From Promethearchaeota archaeon (GTDB lineage: Archaea > Asgardarchaeota > Lokiarchaeia > Sigyniarchaeales > SOKP01): a DNA stretch of 14,117 bases. Position numbers and translations under genes: made by a program. The DNA lies in the NCBI GenBank assembly GCA_048941265.1, contig JBHLNT010000106.1:1-14117 (forward strand), given 5' to 3'. Positions 5,460-14,117 of the stretch are shown in pieces (the first letter of the stretch is position 1; every line of letters starts with the position of its first letter). The notes beneath the pieces were generated by a model. The model saw only the letters and a list, made by a program, of their open reading frames with translations, searched no databases and was not told the DNA's origin.

Positions 5460-7913
5460 ATGATTAACGAGGAATTTAAATTTTCAGATAAATCGATTTT
5501 AATAGAAGAATTGGCGAAATTAGGATCTTCTTTTAAAATTAAGTCCTATAATCAAAAACTAAAACTAATGGAAGATCAAAAAATTCCTCAAAAAGATATG
5601 AAAGAAGTATTAAATCACTTTTTTTCTAATGAAAATAAGATAATAAATCCCAAAACAAAAAATTCCATAAAAAAGATATTGTTTTCTCAAAAAGATCGTA
5701 TAATTATTGCGATAACTAACTCCGGAAGGGAAATTATTTGGAATCGAGATAAATTAATTAAAAAGTATGGTTGGTTTTTTTTTGTTTCTGAATCCGAAAA
5801 ACGTTTCATAGAAAAAAAATCCAAAAAATCTAAGAACTTTGAAAAAAAGGCAAAAAAAGAAGAGAAAACAATTAAAACAGAAGAATACAACTTCGATGAT
5901 ACTACTATTATTCTAAAGCAAAAAGAAAATATGCGACCTTTGTATAAGACAAAAGAATACTTTAAGTATTTTAAAAATATTAAATCAAAAAGAATTCCAC
6001 AGATGCCAATTAAAAAAGTATTAGATGATTTTTTTCTAAAAAATGAAGATATACCATTAAAAGAAAAAAAAACTATAGCTAAAATAATTTACTATACTGA
6101 AGATAAGGTTATTGTTGTTAAATCTTTAATCGGAGATAAAATGTATGAGAATCTGGATAAATTAGTAGATCATTACGGTTGGTATTTCTATATTACAGGC
6201 GTACCAGTGGGTAAAAGTGAAATTTCTATAGCTATAGATAAAATTGACAGAAAATTTGATGAAACTTTTTTTAAAGAGAAATCTCTTAAGGACGGAATAG
6301 AAAATGGGGAGAAGATTAGAGTAAGCCTTTATCCAGTTGCTTTAAAACCTAATCATAATTCATTAATTTTAGGTTTGGGAAAATTAAATATTTTATTAGA
6401 CTGCGGGATTACTGAAGAATATTTTGAATATATTGAAGATTATCAAAATAATTTTAACCAGCTAATAGCGGATAGTAGAGACACTAGAAAAATAATTACA
6501 GAATGGGGAAGTAAAGAAGGAAAATCTACAGACACTCAAAATACCCAAGAATCTGAAAATACTGAAAAAGTTGAATCTACAGAAGAAATCTTGTCTGAGA
6601 TTGAGAAAGAAGATGAGATTATTAAAAGTAAAGAAACTCAGGAGTTGTATATTCCTGAGGAAAAGAAATTATCATATATCCCAAAAATCGATGCTATATT
6701 TATATCCCACAGCCATTTTGATCATATTTCAGGTTTAAAAGATTTTATTAAACTAAATCCTGAGGTCCCAATTTTATGTTCAAGAATTACTTTGGATTTA
6801 TATTTGTTAAGAGATTCAGAATATTTAAAGCAGGAAAATCGGGAAGAAATCCAAGATCAAGAATATGTAAATATCGTTAAAAATGTAATATATGTTGAAA
6901 ACGGAGATAAGATTGAATTTGAAGAAAAAGGGTGTTATTTATCGTTCTACCATGCCGGACACATGCCAGGGGCCTTAATGATGTTAGCAAAAGTGCAAGA
7001 TTTTCGATTTTTATTTACAGGAGATTATACTTATTATGATATAACGCCATTTGCTGGTACCAGAAGATTTTTAGAACAAATTTCTCGTCCAATTGATTTT
7101 TTACTAATAGATGCTTCAAGCGCCCAAGAAGATTTCGGAAATCTATCAGATCAGTTTCATAGTTTAATCTTATTCTTAGAACAAAAAGCGGAATATGGAG
7201 ATAATTGTCTTATTGGTGCTGATCCATCAAGCTTAGCAATTACCTTTATGTTAATATTCTGGAGATACTTCAGAAAATTACAACTCAGAAAGGGCTTCAA
7301 GAAGAGACCTAATATTTATGTGGATCAGATGGTTCGAAAAAATATTCAAGTTATTAATCATAGATATGAATATATTTATGGTCCTATTTCTCGCTTAATC
7401 AGAGATAAAGCAAATCCATTTAATTCCATTAAATTTCGATGGTTTGACATTAGTGATTTAGATTTCTTACGAAAGAAAAATAATATCATTATATCACATC
7501 CACCGGATCTCTCATACGGGATTATTAGAAATATTATTAATGTGATAGGAAGAAACCCGCATAATTTAGTATTTCTTTCAGGTGCGATTCATGAAGACCC
7601 CGCATCAAGCTTGATTAATCCTCCTGAGTCAGATGAAAAAGCAGAAATGAAAGAGATTATCTTTTCTGATACATGGAAAATGCCTTTTCGAGCATTATTA
7701 ATAAATACCTTCGCACCTCAAATAAAAATAAAACTTCATGGGGATCGGACACAATTACGAGAAATGATTAAAAGTCTTGAACCAAAGGAAGTGTGCTTTT
7801 TTCATCAATCACCAAAAGCCCTGATTGATGTCGCAAGGGAAGTAGATCTCTCTTTTGATTTTGTTGATAAAGTATCAGTGCCACATAAGAGAAATCTCAT
7901 GATATTGAATTAA
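5460..7913 (+). CDS. Metallo-beta-lactamase / beta-CASP family nuclease (aCPSF-related) with duplicated N-terminal domain
   Basis: Motif 1 ILLDCG, motif 2 HSHFDH, motif 3 AGHMPG, motif 4 FTGDY, and beta-CASP motifs A (LIDAS), B (KLHGD), C (FFHQ). Confidence 0.85.
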   Translation: MINEEFKFSDKSILIEELAKLGSSFKIKSYNQKLKLMEDQKIPQKDMKEVLNHFFSNENKIINPKTKNSIKKILFSQKDRIIIAITNSGREIIWNRDKLIKKYGWFFFVSESEKRFIEKKSKKSKNFEKKAKKEEKTIKTEEYNFDDTTIILKQKENMRPLYKTKEYFKYFKNIKSKRIPQMPIKKVLDDFFLKNEDIPLKEKKTIAKIIYYTEDKVIVVKSLIGDKMYENLDKLVDHYGWYFYITGVPVGKSEISIAIDKIDRKFDETFFKEKSLKDGIENGEKIRVSLYPVALKPNHNSLILGLGKLNILLDCGITEEYFEYIEDYQNNFNQLIADSRDTRKIITEWGSKEGKSTDTQNTQESENTEKVESTEEILSEIEKEDEIIKSKETQELYIPEEKKLSYIPKIDAIFISHSHFDHISGLKDFIKLNPEVPILCSRITLDLYLLRDSEYLKQENREEIQDQEYVNIVKNVIYVENGDKIEFEEKGCYLSFYHAGHMPGALMMLAKVQDFRFLFTGDYTYYDITPFAGTRRFLEQISRPIDFLLIDASSAQEDFGNLSDQFHSLILFLEQKAEYGDNCLIGADPSSLAITFMLIFWRYFRKLQLRKGFKKRPNIYVDQMVRKNIQVINHRYEYIYGPISRLIRDKANPFNSIKFRWFDISDLDFLRKKNNIIISHPPDLSYGIIRNIINVIGRNPHNLVFLSGAIHEDPASSLINPPESDEKAEMKEIIFSDTWKMPFRALLINTFAPQIKIKLHGDRTQLREMIKSLEPKEVCFFHQSPKALIDVAREVDLSFDFVDKVSVPHKRNLMILN
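5469..6194 (+). repeat. Protein-level tandem duplication (aa 4-109 and aa 141-245)
   Basis: EEFKFSD/EEYNFDD, FKIKSY/YKTKEY and KIPQKDMKEVLNHFF/RIPQMPIKKVLDDFF align at a constant 137-aa offset. The units end in DKLIKKYGWFFFV/DKLVDHYGWYFYI. Confidence 0.85.
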
Positions 7914-7959: not shown

Positions 7960-9834
7960 TTATGTTATTAAACCAAATTCCTTAAGTTTTATTTCTACAT
8001 CCATTAAATTAAGTTTTCTTAGTGTTTCTAGCATCGGTACTCCATTTTCATTCCAACCAATGCTATTATAGTATGCAAACCTTTTCTCTTCAAACTTTGT
8101 ACGATTTAATGTTTTTCCTTTATATGGTCCCGAGGTCAATGGTTCCCAGAACTTTGGGGGATTATCATCATCTTCTTTAGGTTTCCATCGAACGTCCGGT
8201 CCACCTAAAAGTAACATAGCTCTTTGGAGGTGAAGAATTCTTTGTGCTTTTTGGTTGAACCATTCCTCTTCTGATAGCTCCCATCCTGTTACTGCTTTAT
8301 AAAAGTTAAATATTGACTTGAATTGTAATAACATTGCGTTAAAAGCACAAAATACCGCAGAATCGGCCATTATCGTTGATAATTCACCATGTCCGCCATC
8401 AATCGGGAGAATGGCGGGTGAACCGTGATCTCCAGCCTGGACCGAGCAAGCATAGCCTATGTGATTAGAGATCATATCTTGTCCGCTCCTAATTCCATGA
8501 GCTCCAATGGCTATACCTTTTTCGTGAACGACATACTTAAGGAGATCAGTTTTTTTCACTTCTCCGATCTTTAATGCTGCTCGATAAATACCCTCTGCTA
8601 AAATATCTCCAATATCTCTTCTAGAGGCTATCTTCTCTGCTAAAGATACAAAAGCATCTGTATCTCCCCATTTTGGTGATATTCCATTTAAATCACTCTC
8701 TGTAAGAATTCTTTTTTCAAATAATTCTGCTGTTAATCCTAAAATTGCTCCACCTTGAATCGCGCACATTCCAAGTTCTTCAATAATATATGATAGATAA
8801 ATATTTTCTTCAGGAGTGAAAATTCCTAGATTAGTACCTAAATATGCTTGAAGCTCGTAATCGGGATTATCGCAAATTGCTCCTTTAAACTTTCCGGTTT
8901 TCAGAACTGAAAGCTTAAGACATGTTAATGGGCAACCATAATCACCCCAATTTTTTTTTACCCAGTATTTATCAAATTCTTCACCAGTATAGCTTTTATT
9001 ATCATGCCATTCTTCCTGCCAATTTCTAATAGGTTCAGAACTAGTCGTATTTCCAAACATATAACACCCTTGTCCTGTTCCCCAGCGTCTAAAAAATCTA
9101 TTTTGAAAATTCCTTTTTGAAATTTTTTCAATTAAATACAGAGTTTTTTCGCTATCGGCGATCTCTGGCAGTGGACCAAAACCTTTAACAACTATCGCCT
9201 TAAGGTTCTTAGAGCCCATTACTCCACCATATCCTCCATATCCTGCAGCATGTGAATATTTAGAGCACACAACTGCAACTCTTGTCCTATTTTCTCCAGC
9301 CGGTCCTATATAAAGAATTGAGGGCTCTTTTATTTGTCCATATTTAGGTCGAGCTTCTCTAAGTTCATCGTTTGATTTCTTTACAAGATAACGTACGGTT
9401 TTTCTAGCTGTTTTTCCCCAAATTGATGAGGCATCTTTAATCTCAACATTATCATCGGATAGAAATAAATAACATGGCTTTTCTGATTTGTTAATAAAAA
9501 TTAGACCATCATATCCAGCACATTTTAAGTCAATTCCAACTTCACCTGAAATGGTTGAGCCCACTATCCCATTACTTTGGGGTGATTTCCCAGAAATACA
9601 AATTCTTGCTCCGGGAAAAAATCCCGTCAATGGTCCAGTAAGTACGAGTAATAGGTTTTCTATTCCTAATGGATCCACGGTTTCCCATGTCTTACCAAGT
9701 CTATCCCATAATATCTTTGTGGCTAAACCCCTCCCCCCAATATAATCCCTTAAAATTTTATCAGGAAATTTTATTTCTTTTATTTGTTTATTAGATAGAT
9801 CTATCTCCAAGAATTTACCAGTATAACCGTTCAT
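7960..9834 (-). CDS. aor: Tungsten-containing aldehyde:ferredoxin oxidoreductase family, large subunit (WOR5-like)
   Basis: YIGGRGLA, KSPQSNG, IGPAGEN, GGVMGSKNLKA, DYGCPLTC, PDYE, DSAVFC, YYNSIGWNENGVP. ATGA overlap with the upstream Fe-S gene. Confidence 0.93.
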   Translation of the reverse strand: MNGYTGKFLEIDLSNKQIKEIKFPDKILRDYIGGRGLATKILWDRLGKTWETVDPLGIENLLLVLTGPLTGFFPGARICISGKSPQSNGIVGSTISGEVGIDLKCAGYDGLIFINKSEKPCYLFLSDDNVEIKDASSIWGKTARKTVRYLVKKSNDELREARPKYGQIKEPSILYIGPAGENRTRVAVVCSKYSHAAGYGGYGGVMGSKNLKAIVVKGFGPLPEIADSEKTLYLIEKISKRNFQNRFFRRWGTGQGCYMFGNTTSSEPIRNWQEEWHDNKSYTGEEFDKYWVKKNWGDYGCPLTCLKLSVLKTGKFKGAICDNPDYELQAYLGTNLGIFTPEENIYLSYIIEELGMCAIQGGAILGLTAELFEKRILTESDLNGISPKWGDTDAFVSLAEKIASRRDIGDILAEGIYRAALKIGEVKKTDLLKYVVHEKGIAIGAHGIRSGQDMISNHIGYACSVQAGDHGSPAILPIDGGHGELSTIMADSAVFCAFNAMLLQFKSIFNFYKAVTGWELSEEEWFNQKAQRILHLQRAMLLLGGPDVRWKPKEDDDNPPKFWEPLTSGPYKGKTLNRTKFEEKRFAYYNSIGWNENGVPMLETLRKLNLMDVEIKLKEFGLIT

Positions 9835-10367
9835 GGGCTTAACACCTCCTTTGTAATCTCTTCTCCTAGAATTTGTTTAGCAACATTAATAGTGAGTTCT
9901 TTAGGTTTTTTCGCCATACTGCCGCGATTAACACTCTTTGATTTTTGAATAACGGTTAATGCATTCCATCTGCCCTTTTGACAAGCCTTCGCGCATAAAG
10001 GTGTCCCGTTACACAAATCACATATTACGATGCAATCTTTCCCCGGATGGAGGTGTGGTATATCTCCAGGGCAAGCATCTATACACATCCCGCATGATAT
10101 ACATTTTGATTCGTCTACAATTACCGCACCAGTTTTATCATTTATTGTTAGAGCCTCCTCGGGGCAGGCTTCAACACAAGGATAATCTTCACATTGAAAA
10201 CAAAGATGAGGAATCTCGACTCCCGGAACAAGCATGAAGATTCGGATTCTTGATGCTTCGGGCCAAATTTTACCCTCATGAGAGATAGAACACGCAATTT
10301 CGCATCTTCTGCATCCACTGCAGGTTTCATAATTGCGTTTTATCCATATTTGTTCATCCTGACTAAT
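9831..10367 (-). CDS. 4x[4Fe-4S] electron-transfer small subunit of the oxidoreductase (DmsB/HydN-type); proposed ATT start
   Basis: The ORF-track call (ATG 10235) lacks the first cluster motif. The same frame continues upstream as ISQDEQIWIKRNYETCSGCRRCEIACSISHEGKIWPEASRIRIF, which completes four 4-Cys groups. No in-frame ATG/GTG/TTG occurs before the upstream TAG. Confidence 0.9.
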   Translation of the reverse strand: MSQDEQIWIKRNYETCSGCRRCEIACSISHEGKIWPEASRIRIFMLVPGVEIPHLCFQCEDYPCVEACPEEALTINDKTGAVIVDESKCISCGMCIDACPGDIPHLHPGKDCIVICDLCNGTPLCAKACQKGRWNALTVIQKSKSVNRGSMAKKPKELTINVAKQILGEEITKEVLSP

Positions 10368-10427
10368 CTTGGATCGCTTCTTTTTGATCTAATTTTACAA
10401 TCTGACATAAGAAAACAAAAAATTCTT

Positions 10428-10533: not shown

Positions 10534-10836
10534 ATGACTTACCACAAAATGAAAGGACTCCTCTCTTTTCTAATACTATGGGTAATTAAAAATAGAAAGA
10601 TGACTGGAGTGGAAATAACCACAGAACTCGAAAAAAGAAAAGGTAGAAAACTAAGTCCTGGTACAATATATCCTGTGTTAAAAAAACTTAAAAAAGATGG
10701 ATTGCTTGAAATGGATGAAAACAAATGTTATGCTCTCACAGAATTAGGGATTAAAGAATTGAAGTATCGATTAGGAATTTTTCTAAAAACTTTTCCTGAT
10801 ATTGAGGATATGAGAGATTTTATAAAAAAAAATTAA
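10534..10836 (+). CDS. PadR-family transcriptional regulator
   Basis: MKGLLSFLILWVI...TGVEI...LSPGTIYPVLKKLKKDGLL...YALTELG is the classic short PadR winged helix. Confidence 0.92.
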   Translation: MTYHKMKGLLSFLILWVIKNRKMTGVEITTELEKRKGRKLSPGTIYPVLKKLKKDGLLEMDENKCYALTELGIKELKYRLGIFLKTFPDIEDMRDFIKKN

Positions 10837-11616: not shown

Positions 11617-11819
11617 AGGTAATATTTCTCCTTTAAAATTTATTAAGATTATTTTATTTATAAAAATCCTTAGCATTAATTCTTTATCAATTCTTGGTTT
11701 TTAGTAAATTATTCCAAAAAACTATGATTAAGAAATTTTATGACCTATAAGCATTAAATTTTAAATCGTTTTATCTCATTTTATATATTATAGAAAGAAT
11801 AATTTTAAGGTGTTCAAGA

Positions 11820-12182
11820 ATTTATACTGACAAAGTATTGGAACATTTTAAGAATCCACGAAATATGGGAGAAATGGAAGATGCAGATGCCGTAGGAGAG
11901 TATGGAAATCCTGTATGTGGAGATTTGATGTATATTTATATAAAAGTTAAAGATGATAAAATTGATGATATTTCTTTCCAAACATTTGGATGTGCAGCTG
12001 CTATTGCTACATCAAGCATGGTAACCGAGTTGGCAAAAGGAAAAACATTAGATGAGGCAATGAACATTACTAGAAATGATGTTGCTGACGCTTTAGACGG
12101 TCTTCCACCAATTAAACTACATTGTAGTAATTTAGCTGCCGATGCTTTACATGAAGCTATAAAGAAATATCGTCAAAAATAA
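11820..12182 (+). CDS. iscU: Fe-S cluster scaffold IscU/NifU; proposed ATT start
   Basis: HFKNPRNMG, GNPVCGD, FQTFGCAAAIATSS, LPPIKLHCSNLA. The conserved N-terminus YTDKVLEHF lies upstream of the track's TTG 11838. ATT 11820 occupies the Met position, 7 nt after AAGGTG. Confidence 0.95.
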   Translation: MYTDKVLEHFKNPRNMGEMEDADAVGEYGNPVCGDLMYIYIKVKDDKIDDISFQTFGCAAAIATSSMVTELAKGKTLDEAMNITRNDVADALDGLPPIKLHCSNLAADALHEAIKKYRQK

Positions 12183-12268
12183 CTTATTTAAATTCTTTTA
12201 TTCAATATTAATTGAATAACGTCATCTTAAATAAAAAGTATCCACACTGTAAGCATATAAAAAGCCTC

Positions 12269-12718
12269 TTAATGTTTTTCAAAAGAGTTTTTAAAAGCTT
12301 TTGCACAATGTTTACAGCAAAAATTCATCTCCTTCCCCTCAATTACTTCAGTGTGATAATTATCATATAATTTTACTCCACAACTAGCACAGATTTTTAA
12401 TTTTGATTCTACCGCCGCTTCAATTAAATTATTAAATCTTGAAAATATCCTGTCAATAAATTCATCACCCGTAGAAGTTAATCTAATTCCTTTCACACGA
12501 CCTGTGTTTTTTTTTTGAATATCTTCAATGTATCCACTTTCTTTGAGGGTTTTTAAAAAATCATAAATGCTTGTTGGACTTGCTGTTGTGCCTAGATCCT
12601 CTTTTAGACGATTAATAATTTTATATCCCGTTAATCTATTTTTAGATTTTAGTAATAATAAGATATAGAATCTTGTTATACTTTGAATTTTTATATCTTG
12701 AGTTTCAGTCATTTTCAA
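12269..12718 (-). CDS. PadR-type winged-helix regulator with C-terminal TRASH metal-binding domain (probable copper regulator)
   Basis: FYILLLL...LTGYKII...SPTSIYDFLKTLKESGYI...LTSTG, then CASCG-x15-FCCKHC. Divergent from copA. Start is TTG 12718 or ATG 12712. Confidence 0.88.
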   Translation of the reverse strand: MKMTETQDIKIQSITRFYILLLLKSKNRLTGYKIINRLKEDLGTTASPTSIYDFLKTLKESGYIEDIQKKNTGRVKGIRLTSTGDEFIDRIFSRFNNLIEAAVESKLKICASCGVKLYDNYHTEVIEGKEMNFCCKHCAKAFKNSFEKH

Positions 12719-13212: not shown

Positions 13213-13358
13213 TAACGCTGAATTATAAAATAAATAGAATATTTACTCTTTTTTTTAGTTTTTAATTATGAATTACTACAAATGTTTACAATTTATAAAC
13301 AAAATATAGAAAAATTAAAACAAAAATTAATAATATGAAGAAAAAGAAGTGATCTGAT

Positions 13359-14117
13359 ATGGATGATATTTCTGATGAGAAAGTTAAAATTAAACTTGGT
13401 GGGATGACATGTGCTTCATGTGCATTAAAAATTGAAACTAAACTGAAAAACATGGAAGGAGTTAGAAGTTCACTTGTAAATTTTGCTAACGAAGAGGCAA
13501 CGGTTGAATATAACCCAAAACGGACCAATTATTATGAGTTTGATAAAGCAATAAAGGATCTAGGATATAAAGCTTCACTTGCTAAAATTGATTTAAAAAT
13601 AGTTGACTCACTTTCTGAAGAAGAATTTGATACTCTTACTAAAAAGATTAAAGAAATATCGGGAATCTACAATGTACGAGGTAATTATAAGGCAGCAAAA
13701 TTATTTATTGAATTCAATGAGCTTCAAATAGATGAAAATAAAGTTTATACTTCAGTGAAAAATCTAGGGTATAAAATAGAAAAAGCAGCTGGTGTAGTTG
13801 ATAAGGAAATTGAACAACATAAGAAAGAAATGAAATATCGCTTAAGAATTCTTATAATATCTTTAATCTTTGCTGCAATTATCGCTCCTGTAAATTGGCT
13901 TGTTCCTCCTTCATTTACTCGTAATTTATTTTTGACAATATTAGCAACCGGGAATTATATTATAGCAGGTTCCTTTTTCTTCGAGGGTGCTTATAAATCC
14001 TTAAAAAATAAATCTGCAAATATGGATGTTTTAATCATACTAGGAACTACAACTGCTTATGTATATTCGTTTTTGACGACTTTTTTTATATCAGGAGAAG
14101 TTTTCTATGAGGCAATG
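13359..14117 (+). CDS. copA: Heavy-metal P1B-type ATPase CopA, 5' part (truncated by window edge)
   Basis: Hand translation gives 253 open codons: MDDISDEKVKIKLGGMTCASCALKIE (HMA), a second HMA-like fold, TM segments, then GAYKSLKNKSANMDVLIILGTTTAYVYS and FYEA. SD-like AAGTGATC before the ATG. Absent from the ORF track because there is no stop in the window. Confidence 0.93.
   Translation, partial: MDDISDEKVKIKLGGMTCASCALKIETKLKNMEGVRSSLVNFANEEATVEYNPKRTNYYEFDKAIKDLGYKASLAKIDLKIVDSLSEEEFDTLTKKIKEISGIYNVRGNYKAAKLFIEFNELQIDENKVYTSVKNLGYKIEKAAGVVDKEIEQHKKEMKYRLRILIISLIFAAIIAPVNWLVPPSFTRNLFLTILATGNYIIAGSFFFEGAYKSLKNKSANMDVLIILGTTTAYVYSFLTTFFISGEVFYEAM

What the first reader, a model, noticed from the sequence alone, without database searches (positions are those of the whole stretch)
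11807..11840. iscU also appears to start at ATT: a recurrent AUU-initiation signature
Seen: AAGGTG-TTCAAGA-ATT TAT ACT GAC AAA GTA TTG GAA CAT reads (M)YTDKVLEHF. No canonical in-frame start exists back to TAA at 11748. Known: IscU proteins begin MYSxKVxDHFxNPRN. The SD-core-to-start spacing is 7 nt here (GGTG), in the Fe-S subunit (AGCG) and in ATG-initiated copA (AGTG-ATCTGAT-ATG). Both ATT sites share a TC(C)AAG(A)ATT context. Inference: two independent cases in 14 kb suggest relaxed start-codon selection in this lineage, or AUU-based translational tuning of Fe-S genes. This bears on aIF1/eIF1-type initiation fidelity in Asgard archaea.
Basis: partly seen in the sequence, partly recalled or inferred. 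Interest (0 to 1): 0.82.

Follow-up and report, generated by a model that had tools for sequence, protein, structure and literature searches.

The report
AUU and AUA start codons, family-wide
The iron-sulfur scaffold gene iscU in this Asgard archaeon almost certainly starts at ATT, and it is one of dozens of genes here, including ribosomal proteins and the start-codon fidelity factor aIF1, that use ATT or ATA placed exactly behind a ribosome-binding site.

Summary
The iscU frame (11820-12182, +) has no in-frame ATG/GTG/TTG between the TAA at 11748 and TTG 11838. ATT 11820 lies 7 nt after GGTG, and the residue after it aligns to position 2 of Pfam NifU_N.

Orthologs carry ATT, ATA, ATC, ATG or GTG at this codon. 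Of 25 Asgard-titled loci, 21 carry ATT/ATA/ATC. All 29 Bathyarchaeia-titled loci carry a canonical start.

The signal is genome-wide. Among GGTG+7-nt sites opening at least 100 codons, with no upstream NTG, I count ATG 28, ATT 28, ATA 21, TTG 12 and 0-4 for each other codon. Coding periodicity starts directly after ATT/ATA. Pfam domains of uS10, uS12, Ras-like GTPases, TFB and others begin before the first NTG.

The pattern recurs in two other genomes of the same family. It is weak in a sister family. It is not seen in two other Asgard families, one of them equally AT-rich.

The initiator tRNA keeps a CAU anticodon. The aIF1 gene itself starts at ATT/ATC in 38 of 41 family genomes, which recalls bacterial infC.

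The idea of Fe-S-specific tuning and the shared "TCCAAGATT" context are not supported. There is no proteomic or ribosome-profiling proof, and eight literature searches found no prior description.

The parts
11807..11812 (+). Shine-Dalgarno core AAGGTG (GGTG at 11809-11812). It is complementary to the 16S rRNA 3' end ...GGATCACCTCCT found on contig C222.
   Evidence: GGTG ends exactly 7 nt before the start codon in 16 of 33 ATT/ATA/ATC-start orthologs.
11820..11822 (+). ATT, the proposed iscU start codon
   Evidence: no in-frame NTG upstream, it aligns to ATG in 42 of 104 ortholog loci, and the next residue aligns to NifU_N profile position 2.
11820..12182 (+). iscU coding sequence (120 codons plus stop)
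   Evidence: Pfam NifU_N, E 6.9e-49, covering the whole protein.
11838..11840 (+). TTG, the first canonical in-frame start (the rival start). Starting here would remove the conserved YTDKV.
   Evidence: This codon is ATG in 26 of 33 ATH-start orthologs and is also M or L in ATG-start outgroups, so it is an ordinary internal residue.
10365..10367 (-). ATT, the proposed start of the 4Fe-4S subunit upstream of the aldehyde:ferredoxin oxidoreductase gene
   Evidence: The first NTG (ATG 10235) lies after the first Cys cluster. Ortholog G020 has ATG at the aligned codon.
10371..10377 (-). SD-like GCGATCC, matching GTGATCC of the SD consensus at 6 of 7 positions. The GCG ends 7 nt before ATT.
9831..10367 (-). 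Fe-S subunit coding sequence (several 4Fe-4S dicluster domains)
13348..13361 (+). copA start region AGTG-ATCTGAT-ATG. It has the same 7-nt register with a canonical ATG.

Best explanation
iscU is translated from AUU at 11820. The 30S subunit is placed by pairing of the mRNA GGUG(A) with the 16S rRNA 3' end, which puts the codon 7 nt downstream into the P site. I infer that the ordinary initiator tRNA (anticodon CAU) pairs there with a third-position mismatch.

This is not a peculiarity of iscU or of Fe-S genes. In this genome, and in its GTDB family (called f1 here, within the Lokiarchaeia-type class of Promethearchaeota/Asgard), AUU and AUA, and more rarely AUC, are regular start codons of SD-led genes. 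By my background-corrected estimate they make up roughly a quarter of GGTG-led starts. They are restricted to a narrow SD spacing of 6-7 nt, whereas AUG tolerates 5-10 nt.

The gene for aIF1, the factor that rejects non-canonical starts in other archaea, itself starts at AUU/AUC in this family. That suggests (inference) a feedback loop like bacterial infC and a lineage-specific setting of start-codon stringency.

Shown here: the sequence anatomy, the genome-wide enrichment, the coding signal, the domain coverage and the ortholog alternation. Inferred: actual initiation at these codons, Met as the first residue, and any role of aIF1 dosage.
For: (1) Anatomy. There is no in-frame NTG from the stop at 11748 to 11838. 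GGTG ends 7 nt before ATT. The anti-SD ...GGATCACCTCCT is present in the 16S rRNA.

(2) Homology. The residue after ATT aligns to NifU_N profile position 2.

(3) Orthologs. In 104 distinct iscU loci the aligned codon is ATG 42, ATT 20, ATA 10, GTG 6, ATC 3, TTG 3 and other 20. Of the 20 others, 12 are long paralogs with ATG five codons upstream. Of the 33 ATT/ATA/ATC loci, 21 have no upstream in-frame NTG at all. Codons +1 to +5 keep Y-S/T-D/E-K-V while varying synonymously (TAT 24/TAC 9; GTA 18/GTT 7/GTC 5/GTG 3). By record title, 21 of 25 Asgard-titled loci have ATT/ATA/ATC and 29 of 29 Bathyarchaeia-titled loci have ATG/GTG/TTG.

(4) Genome-wide. I counted sites with GGTG, then N7, then a codon that opens at least 100 codons, with a stop within 30 codons upstream, no upstream NTG and the next NTG more than 4 codons away. 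The counts are ATG 28, ATT 28, ATA 21, TTG 12, CTG 4, GTG 3 and 0-2 for every other codon. ATT/ATA peak at spacing 7 (11 each at spacing 6), while ATG is flat at 19-29 over spacings 5-10. Poisson values are 3e-17 and 2e-12 against off-register spacings. Control codons AAA and AAT pass only when an NTG follows 1-2 codons later, in 10 of 10 and 6 of 7 cases.

(5) Coding signal. G at codon position 1 is 0.27 (ATT set, n=31) and 0.25 (ATA set, n=25) in codons +1 to +11, before any NTG. It is 0.29 for the ATG set and 0.09-0.11 upstream.

(6) Pfam on 20 of the 78 candidates, chosen by eye for recognisable N-termini. uS10 matches residues 4-98 (profile 1-98), with the next NTG at codon 25. uS12's domain is 34-142 and the next NTG is at codon 99 of 144. 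Ras matches 7-167 and 9-172 (NTG at 21 and 38), SDR 6-197 (NTG 30), Response_reg 4-114 (NTG 11), ATP-synt_D 11-205 (NTG 16), SGL 13-254 (NTG 29), and the TFB zinc ribbon 24-63 (NTG 78).

(7) Other genomes. In the same family (G001+G016, 792 kb), GGTG at spacing 6-7 gives ATT 9, ATA 4 and ATG 7. In G064 (another family, GC 30.8%), ATT and ATA are 0 against ATG 22 over spacings 5-8.

(8) uS12 has ATA behind GGTG+7 in G000, G001, G019 and G085, and ATG without an SD in other genera.

(9) The initiator tRNA candidate has A1-U72, a GGG/CCC anticodon stem and a CAT anticodon.
Against: There is no direct evidence of initiation: no N-terminal peptide, ribosome profiling or toeprint.

The public contigs laid on the window do not cover 11700-11818, so the base call at 11822 was not re-checked in reads.

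A TTG (ATG in most orthologs) lies six codons downstream and could serve as a start or as a second start.

In 12 of 33 ATT/ATA/ATC-start orthologs an in-frame NTG does exist upstream. From the rows printed it appears to be mostly the GTG of the SD motif at spacing 6, or an ATG overlapping the SD. I inspected these rows but did not tally them.

The 20 candidates sent to Pfam were hand-picked. Samples from other genomes were only 400-800 kb, so counts are small. In sister family f2 (G032, 800 kb) the signal is weak (ATT 4, ATA 2, ATC 1 against ATG 11).

Related genomes are not independent observations.
Confidence: 0.85

Rival explanations
1. IscU starts at the first canonical codon, TTG 11838 (ATG in most orthologs). 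The product would be six residues shorter, and the upstream YTDKV would be untranslated leader.
For: TTG 11838 is what ORF listing reports, and an ATG/GTG/TTG-only gene caller would presumably pick it too. The codon is ATG in 26 of 33 ATT/ATA/ATC-start orthologs. Nothing rules out dual initiation.
Against: No SD lies in front of it; the GGTG is 25 nt upstream. Codons +1 to +5 are conserved as amino acids while varying synonymously. They align to NifU_N profile positions 2-6. Outgroups that start at ATG have M or L at the same internal position. The aggregate coding signal starts at the ATT/ATA in 56 comparable genes. For uS12, uS10, the Ras-like GTPases and TFB the equivalent rival would delete essential domain parts.
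Confidence: 0.08
2. AUU is a dedicated translational throttle for Fe-S cluster genes.
For: Both cases in the window are Fe-S related (iscU and a 4Fe-4S subunit). Two 2-oxoacid:ferredoxin oxidoreductase beta subunits are also among the candidates. The near-cognate start of iscU is conserved across genera.
Against: The 20 candidates annotated span ribosomal proteins, GTPases, transcription factors, ATP synthase subunit D, dehydrogenases, peptidases and a response regulator. NifS in the same window uses ATG. The long NifU-like paralogs use ATG.
Confidence: 0.04
3. Artefact: a sequencing or assembly error (ATG read as ATT), a pseudogene, or a changed genetic code in which ATA/ATT encode Met.
For: Reads could not be checked at the site. 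The genome is a 361-contig assembly with 4.8% estimated contamination.
Against: Independent assemblies carry the same ATT at the same place behind the same SD: 20 ATT, 10 ATA and 3 ATC loci. The frame is intact and full-length. The enrichment is specific to codon, frame and spacing. I did not test a code change directly, but it would not explain why only sites at SD+6/7 are enriched.
Confidence: 0.02

Closest known systems
Bacterial infC (IF3) AUU start codon and its autoregulation; also E. coli pcnB AUU (recalled from general knowledge, not from a call)
   Same: An SD-led gene starts at AUU. The gene of the start-codon fidelity factor itself carries the non-canonical start. Here aIF1 starts at ATT/ATC in 38 of 41 readable family genomes.
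   Different: The domain and the factor differ: archaeal aIF1, the eIF1 homolog, rather than IF3. In bacteria AUU starts are isolated exceptions. Here ATT/ATA account for roughly a quarter of GGTG-led starts and include ribosomal proteins. Feedback is not shown.
Eukaryotic eIF1 autoregulation through a poor start context, and near-cognate initiation controlled by eIF1/eIF5 (passages of PMC6237735; search listings for PMC3326321 and PMC4705826)
   Same: The factor family is homologous. The logic is the same: a weak start on the fidelity-factor gene, and stringency set by factor dosage.
   Different: Eukaryotes scan and use Kozak context. Here a fixed SD spacing selects the codon. The weak element is the start codon itself, not its context.
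Mitochondrial AUA/AUU start codons (recalled)
   Same: AUA and AUU are used routinely as starts in an AT-rich genome.
   Different: Mitochondria read AUA as Met, use a modified tRNA-Met and have mostly leaderless mRNAs. Here a free-living archaeon uses an SD at 6-7 nt and a normal-looking CAU initiator tRNA. No evidence for a code change was sought or found.
[quoted passage not shown]
   Same: The same machinery is present: aIF1 with a zinc knuckle and a basic loop, and the same anti-SD.
   Different: In those systems non-canonical starts are rejected. In this family they are common. The aIF1 basic loop differs only conservatively: TRKWGK against KRRFGK in 4mo0 and RARYGK in 5zcy.

Membership tests
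IscU / NifU N-terminal domain (Pfam PF01592) | Full-length match to the NifU_N profile above the curated cut-off | tested here: met
   165.6 bits against a cut-off of 22. Residues 1-119 match profile positions 2-123 of 127.
IscU / NifU N-terminal domain (Pfam PF01592) | The three cluster-ligand cysteines. That these are the ligands is recalled; only their presence in the sequence was read. | tested here: inconclusive
   Cysteines are present in NPVCGD, FGCAAAIA and KLHCSN. I did not check their alignment to ligand positions residue by residue.
Near-cognate (non-ATG/GTG/TTG) translation start | No canonical in-frame start upstream of conserved protein sequence | tested here: met
   for iscU; for the Fe-S subunit; for uS10, uS12, the Ras-like GTPases, TFB and others.
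Near-cognate (non-ATG/GTG/TTG) translation start | Ribosome-binding site at a functional distance | tested here: met
   GGTG lies 7 nt upstream. The anti-SD is present in the 16S rRNA. The enrichment is specific to spacing 6-7.
Near-cognate (non-ATG/GTG/TTG) translation start | The same codon position is a start in orthologs | tested here: met
   ATG 42, GTG 6 and TTG 3 against ATT 20, ATA 10 and ATC 3 among 104 loci.
Near-cognate (non-ATG/GTG/TTG) translation start | Direct detection of initiation (N-terminal peptide, toeprint or initiation-site profiling) | not testable with these tools
   No RNA run is listed, and no proteome is available.
infC-type autoregulation of a fidelity factor through its own non-canonical start | The fidelity-factor gene carries a conserved non-canonical start | tested here: met
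   aIF1 has ATT (35) or ATC (3) in 38 of 41 readable f1 genomes, 3 are ambiguous, and 1 more is cut by a contig end. It also has ATA in families f29, f31, part of f2, f17 and f11, and CTG in f6.
infC-type autoregulation of a fidelity factor through its own non-canonical start | Translation of the factor's mRNA falls when the factor is abundant | not testable with these tools
   This needs in vitro translation or reporter assays.

The most novel reading that the evidence does not exclude
A whole family of Lokiarchaeia-type Asgard archaea runs with relaxed start-codon stringency. AUU and AUA behind an exactly spaced SD act as ordinary start codons, for ribosomal proteins as well. The stringency is set by an aIF1 gene that is itself AUU-initiated. 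That would be an archaeal counterpart of the bacterial infC loop and of eukaryotic eIF1 autoregulation, in the lineage closest to eukaryotes. A practical consequence is that some N-termini in Asgard proteomes predicted with ATG/GTG/TTG-only gene callers, eukaryotic-signature GTPases included, would be truncated or missing.
Probability: 0.35. Interest if true: 0.92.

Novelty: new variant of a known kind. Interest (0 to 1): 0.85.

Why it matters
(1) Annotation. Gene callers limited to ATG/GTG/TTG will truncate or lose these genes. uS12 would lose 99 of its 144 codons, and the Ras-like GTPases would lose their first 21 or 38 residues, which lie inside the Ras domain match. This affects comparative and structural work on Asgard proteins.

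(2) Mechanism. A natural system in which third-position near-cognates are efficient enough for ribosomal proteins, but only at one SD spacing, would be a direct handle on how the archaeal/eukaryotic-type initiation core (aIF1, aIF1A, aIF2, tRNAi) checks the codon.

(3) Evolution. A fidelity factor whose own start is non-canonical is now seen in the sister group of eukaryotes. That links the infC and eIF1 feedback designs and makes it testable how old tunable start-codon stringency is.

Tried and rejected

Reads. One search for sequencing runs listed no RNA holder. Logan contigs of 4 DNA runs laid on 11700-12200 give no cover for 11700-11818 and break at 11854/55, so they say nothing about the base at 11822.

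tRNA hunting. ARAGORN found only 10 tRNAs without intron search and 12 with it. Rfam tRNA matched at 22 places, none of them an initiator. The initiator candidate came only from a motif search. It appears to hold two introns, and I did not parse its T-arm.

Shared context. TCCAAGATT is not above chance.

Broader SD definition. Requiring at least 5 contiguous matches to the 12-nt SD consensus in register gave the same order (ATG 100, ATT 44, ATA 31, TTG 30) but a higher background of 10-15 per codon, so I kept the GGTG test.

SD strength. ATT/ATA sites do not have longer SDs than ATG sites.

aIF1 protein. I found no striking substitution in the basic loop.

Fe-S subunit orthologs. Only 1 close and 2 distant matches turned up in 40 relatives, so comparative support is thin for that gene.

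Sister family f2 gave an ambiguous result. Family f4 (G033) was not examined.

Literature. Eight searches and passages of PMC8211752, PMC6412873 and PMC6237735 contained no description of AUU/AUA starts in Asgard archaea or of a non-canonical aIF1 start. Subscription journals and supplementary files were not searchable and may hold one.

I did not test whether internal ATA/ATT codons are read normally. I did not build a complete re-annotation, and I did not fold or dock anything.

Full report
THE SITE. The window is contig C71 of a 5.01-Mb, 361-contig genome with GC 30.5%. On the + strand AAGGTG (11807-11812) is followed by TTCAAGA and then ATT at 11820, then TAT ACT GAC AAA GTA TTG GAA CAT. 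The frame is open from the TAA at 11748. Before TTG 11838 it holds no ATG, GTG or TTG, and the GTG inside GGTG is out of frame. Read from the codon after ATT, the protein is a complete IscU. Pfam NifU_N matches at E 6.9e-49, with residues 1-119 on profile positions 2-123, so ATT occupies the position of the family's first residue. The nearest public records are MAGs titled Promethearchaeota and other Asgard names. The genome's 16S rRNA ends ...GGATCACCTCCT, so GGTG is a genuine SD core.

ORTHOLOGS OF ISCU. I pooled loci from 40 relatives and from 80 public contigs. I dropped hits that did not reach query residue 2, hits at locus edges and duplicate loci, which left 104 distinct loci.
- The codon aligned with ATT is ATG in 42, ATT in 20, ATA in 10, GTG in 6, ATC in 3, TTG in 3 and something else in 20.
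- Of those 20, 12 are long NifU-like paralogs that start at an ATG five codons upstream, and 8 appear to have a start a few codons upstream.
- Of the 33 ATT/ATA/ATC loci, 16 have GGTG ending exactly 7 nt upstream and 21 have no in-frame NTG upstream at all. In the other 12, from the rows printed, the NTG appears to be mostly the GTG of the SD motif at spacing 6 or an ATG overlapping the SD. This was inspected but not tallied.
- The five codons after the start keep Y-S/T-D/E-K-V while varying synonymously, which indicates selection on the protein upstream of the first NTG.
- By record title, 21 of 25 Asgard-titled loci carry ATT/ATA/ATC and 4 carry ATG. All 29 Bathyarchaeia-titled loci carry ATG, GTG or TTG.
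- A sequencing error is therefore excluded in practice, although the public contigs I could lay do not cover the site.

THE SECOND CASE IN THE WINDOW. The 4Fe-4S subunit upstream of the aldehyde:ferredoxin oxidoreductase gene occupies ORF 9831-10388 on the - strand. Its first NTG (ATG 10235) lies behind the first Cys cluster. ATT at 10367-10365 follows GCGATCC, which matches the SD consensus at 6 of 7 positions, in the same 7-nt register. Only one close ortholog was found in 40 relatives, and it has ATG at exactly the aligned codon. The shared TCCAAGATT context is not above chance.

GENOME-WIDE TEST. For every GGTG on both strands I tabulated the triplet 3-12 nt downstream. I kept a site only if it met four conditions: the triplet opens at least 100 codons, an in-frame stop lies within 30 codons upstream, no NTG lies in between (ignoring the SD's own GTG), and the next in-frame NTG is more than 4 codons away.
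- At spacing 7 the counts are ATG 28, ATT 28, ATA 21, TTG 12, CTG 4, GTG 3, ACG 2, CAT 2 and 0-1 for every other codon.
- ATT and ATA peak at spacing 7, with 11 each at spacing 6 and 6 and 8 at spacing 8. ATG is flat at 19-29 from spacing 5 to 10.
- Against the mean at off-register spacings the excess has Poisson probabilities of 3e-17 (ATT) and 2e-12 (ATA). After background subtraction, near-cognates make up about 23% of GGTG-led starts.
- In an earlier version of the filter, the control codons AAA and AAT passed almost only when an NTG followed within two codons (10 of 10 and 6 of 7). For ATT and ATA the distance to the next NTG is spread like that of true ATG starts.

INDEPENDENT SUPPORT FOR THE GENOME-WIDE SIGNAL. 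In the sets whose next NTG is at least 12 codons away, G at codon position 1 over codons +1 to +11 is 0.27 (ATT, n=31) and 0.25 (ATA, n=25). It is 0.29 for ATG (n=115) and 0.09-0.11 upstream of the SD. Coding composition therefore starts at the ATT/ATA.

I sent 20 of the 78 ATT/ATA/ATC candidates, picked by eye for recognisable N-termini, to Pfam.

| Protein | Domain match (protein residues) | Next in-frame NTG (codon) |
|---|---|---|
| uS10 | 4-98 (profile 1-98) | 25 |
| uS12 | 34-142 | 99 of 144 |
| Ras-like GTPase 1 | 7-167 | 21 |
| Ras-like GTPase 2 | 9-172 | 38 |
| SDR | 6-197 | 30 |
| Response regulator | 4-114 | 11 |
| ATP synthase subunit D | 11-205 | 16 |
| SGL | 13-254 | 29 |
| TFB zinc ribbon | 24-63 | 78 |

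The functions are diverse, which argues against tuning specific to Fe-S genes.

HOW FAR THE TRAIT REACHES. I applied the same GGTG test to sampled DNA of other genomes.
- Same family, G001 plus G016 (792 kb): at spacing 6-7, ATT 9, ATA 4, ATG 7.
- Sister family f2, G032 (800 kb): ATT 4, ATA 2, ATC 1, ATG 11. This is weak and I leave it open.
- Two other Asgard families, G075 plus G064 (800 kb): ATT 2, ATA 2, ATG 24, TTG 13.
- G064 alone, with GC 30.8%: no ATT or ATA over spacings 5-8, against ATG 22.

AT-richness alone therefore does not produce the pattern. Counts are small and family f4 could not be fetched. uS12 shows the link between SD and start codon at the level of one gene. It has ATA behind GGTG+7 in G000, G001, G019 and G085. 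It has ATG without an SD in the other genera of the family, and NTG behind GAGGT-type SDs in other families.

MACHINERY. The initiator tRNA candidate on C212 has A1-U72, a GGG/CCC anticodon stem and anticodon CAT, and appears to hold two introns. I therefore infer an ordinary tRNAi pairing with a third-position mismatch, held in place by the SD duplex at its optimal spacing. aIF1 is present with a zinc knuckle and a basic loop TRKWGK. This differs only conservatively from KRRFGK in 4mo0 and RARYGK in 5zcy. The mutated residues R31, Y32 and K34 are described in PMC6237735 (passages).

THE aIF1 GENE. The aIF1 ORF has no in-frame NTG before the zinc knuckle. It starts at ATT, 10 nt after the GTG of a conserved AGGTTGTGA.
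- Family f1 yielded 42 loci. One is cut by a contig end. Of the 41 readable, 38 have ATT (35) or ATC (3) with no NTG option, and 3 are ambiguous because the motif's GTG is in frame.
- Elsewhere in the class, f29 (2 of 2) and f31 (2 of 2) have ATA, and f30 (3 of 3) has ATG or TTG. In f2, 2 have ATA, 1 is ambiguous and 5 are canonical.
- In 16 genomes of other classes, 13 are canonical, 2 have ATA (f17, f11) and 1 has CTG behind GGTG+7 (f6).
- Related genomes are not independent, so these are descriptions, not statistics.

The design recalls bacterial infC (recalled) and eIF1 autoregulation (PMC6237735, discussion passage). Feedback here is conjecture.

VERDICT. What remains unproven is initiation itself, the identity of the first residue, and any causal role of aIF1. 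Near-cognate initiation is a known kind of event. Its routine, SD-spacing-bound use across a family of Asgard archaea, and on the aIF1 gene, was not described in anything I could search. Supplementary files and subscription journals were not searchable.

Noticed in passing
L114:1468-1797 (-) = G000:C112, about 9667-9996: The aIF1 (SUI1) gene has no in-frame ATG/GTG/TTG before its zinc knuckle. It starts at ATT, 10 nt after the GTG of a conserved AGGTTGTGA. ATT/ATC is kept in 38 of 41 readable genomes of the family. ATA or CTG starts occur in several other Asgard families.
   Followed up: yes
G000:C1:8610-9044 (+) and G000:C161:7764-8069 (+): Ribosomal proteins uS12 and uS10 start at ATA behind GGTG+7. 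For uS12 the next in-frame NTG is codon 99 of 144, so an ATG/GTG/TTG-only gene caller would truncate it badly or miss it.
   Followed up: yes
G000:C212, minus strand, starting at plus-strand position about 20606: The initiator tRNA candidate appears to hold two introns (about 28 nt in the anticodon loop and a longer one in the T-arm region). ARAGORN finds only 10-12 tRNAs in the 5-Mb genome, and many of the Rfam tRNA matches are 100-137 nt long, so intron-rich tRNA genes seem to be the rule here.
   Followed up: partly
uS12 matches in G094, G127 and G100 (family f22): The uS12 match holds one in-frame TGA and is about 30 nt longer than elsewhere in three genomes of one Asgard family. This could be stop-codon recoding or a small insertion. 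A paper on stop-codon recoding in Asgard lineages appeared in a search listing (PMC9723677) but I did not read it.
   Followed up: no
window 12269-12718 (-), 10534-10836 (+), 13359-14117 (+): Two PadR-family regulators flank iscU. One is fused to a TRASH-type metal-binding domain and lies between iscU and the copA-like P-type ATPase gene. This could be a metal-responsive regulatory neighbourhood.
   Followed up: no
window 5460-7913 (+): An 817-aa protein whose metallo-beta-lactamase fold begins only at about residue 400. The long, Lys/Glu-rich N-terminal half, which contains an internal repeat of about 150 aa (KIPQ..MK.VL..FF...), has no Pfam match.
   Followed up: no
L006 and L009 (G009:C28, G005:C10): Some relatives carry two short iscU genes in tandem about 100 nt apart. 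Each sits behind its own GGTG. One starts at ATT and the other at ATT, ATG or ATA.
   Followed up: partly
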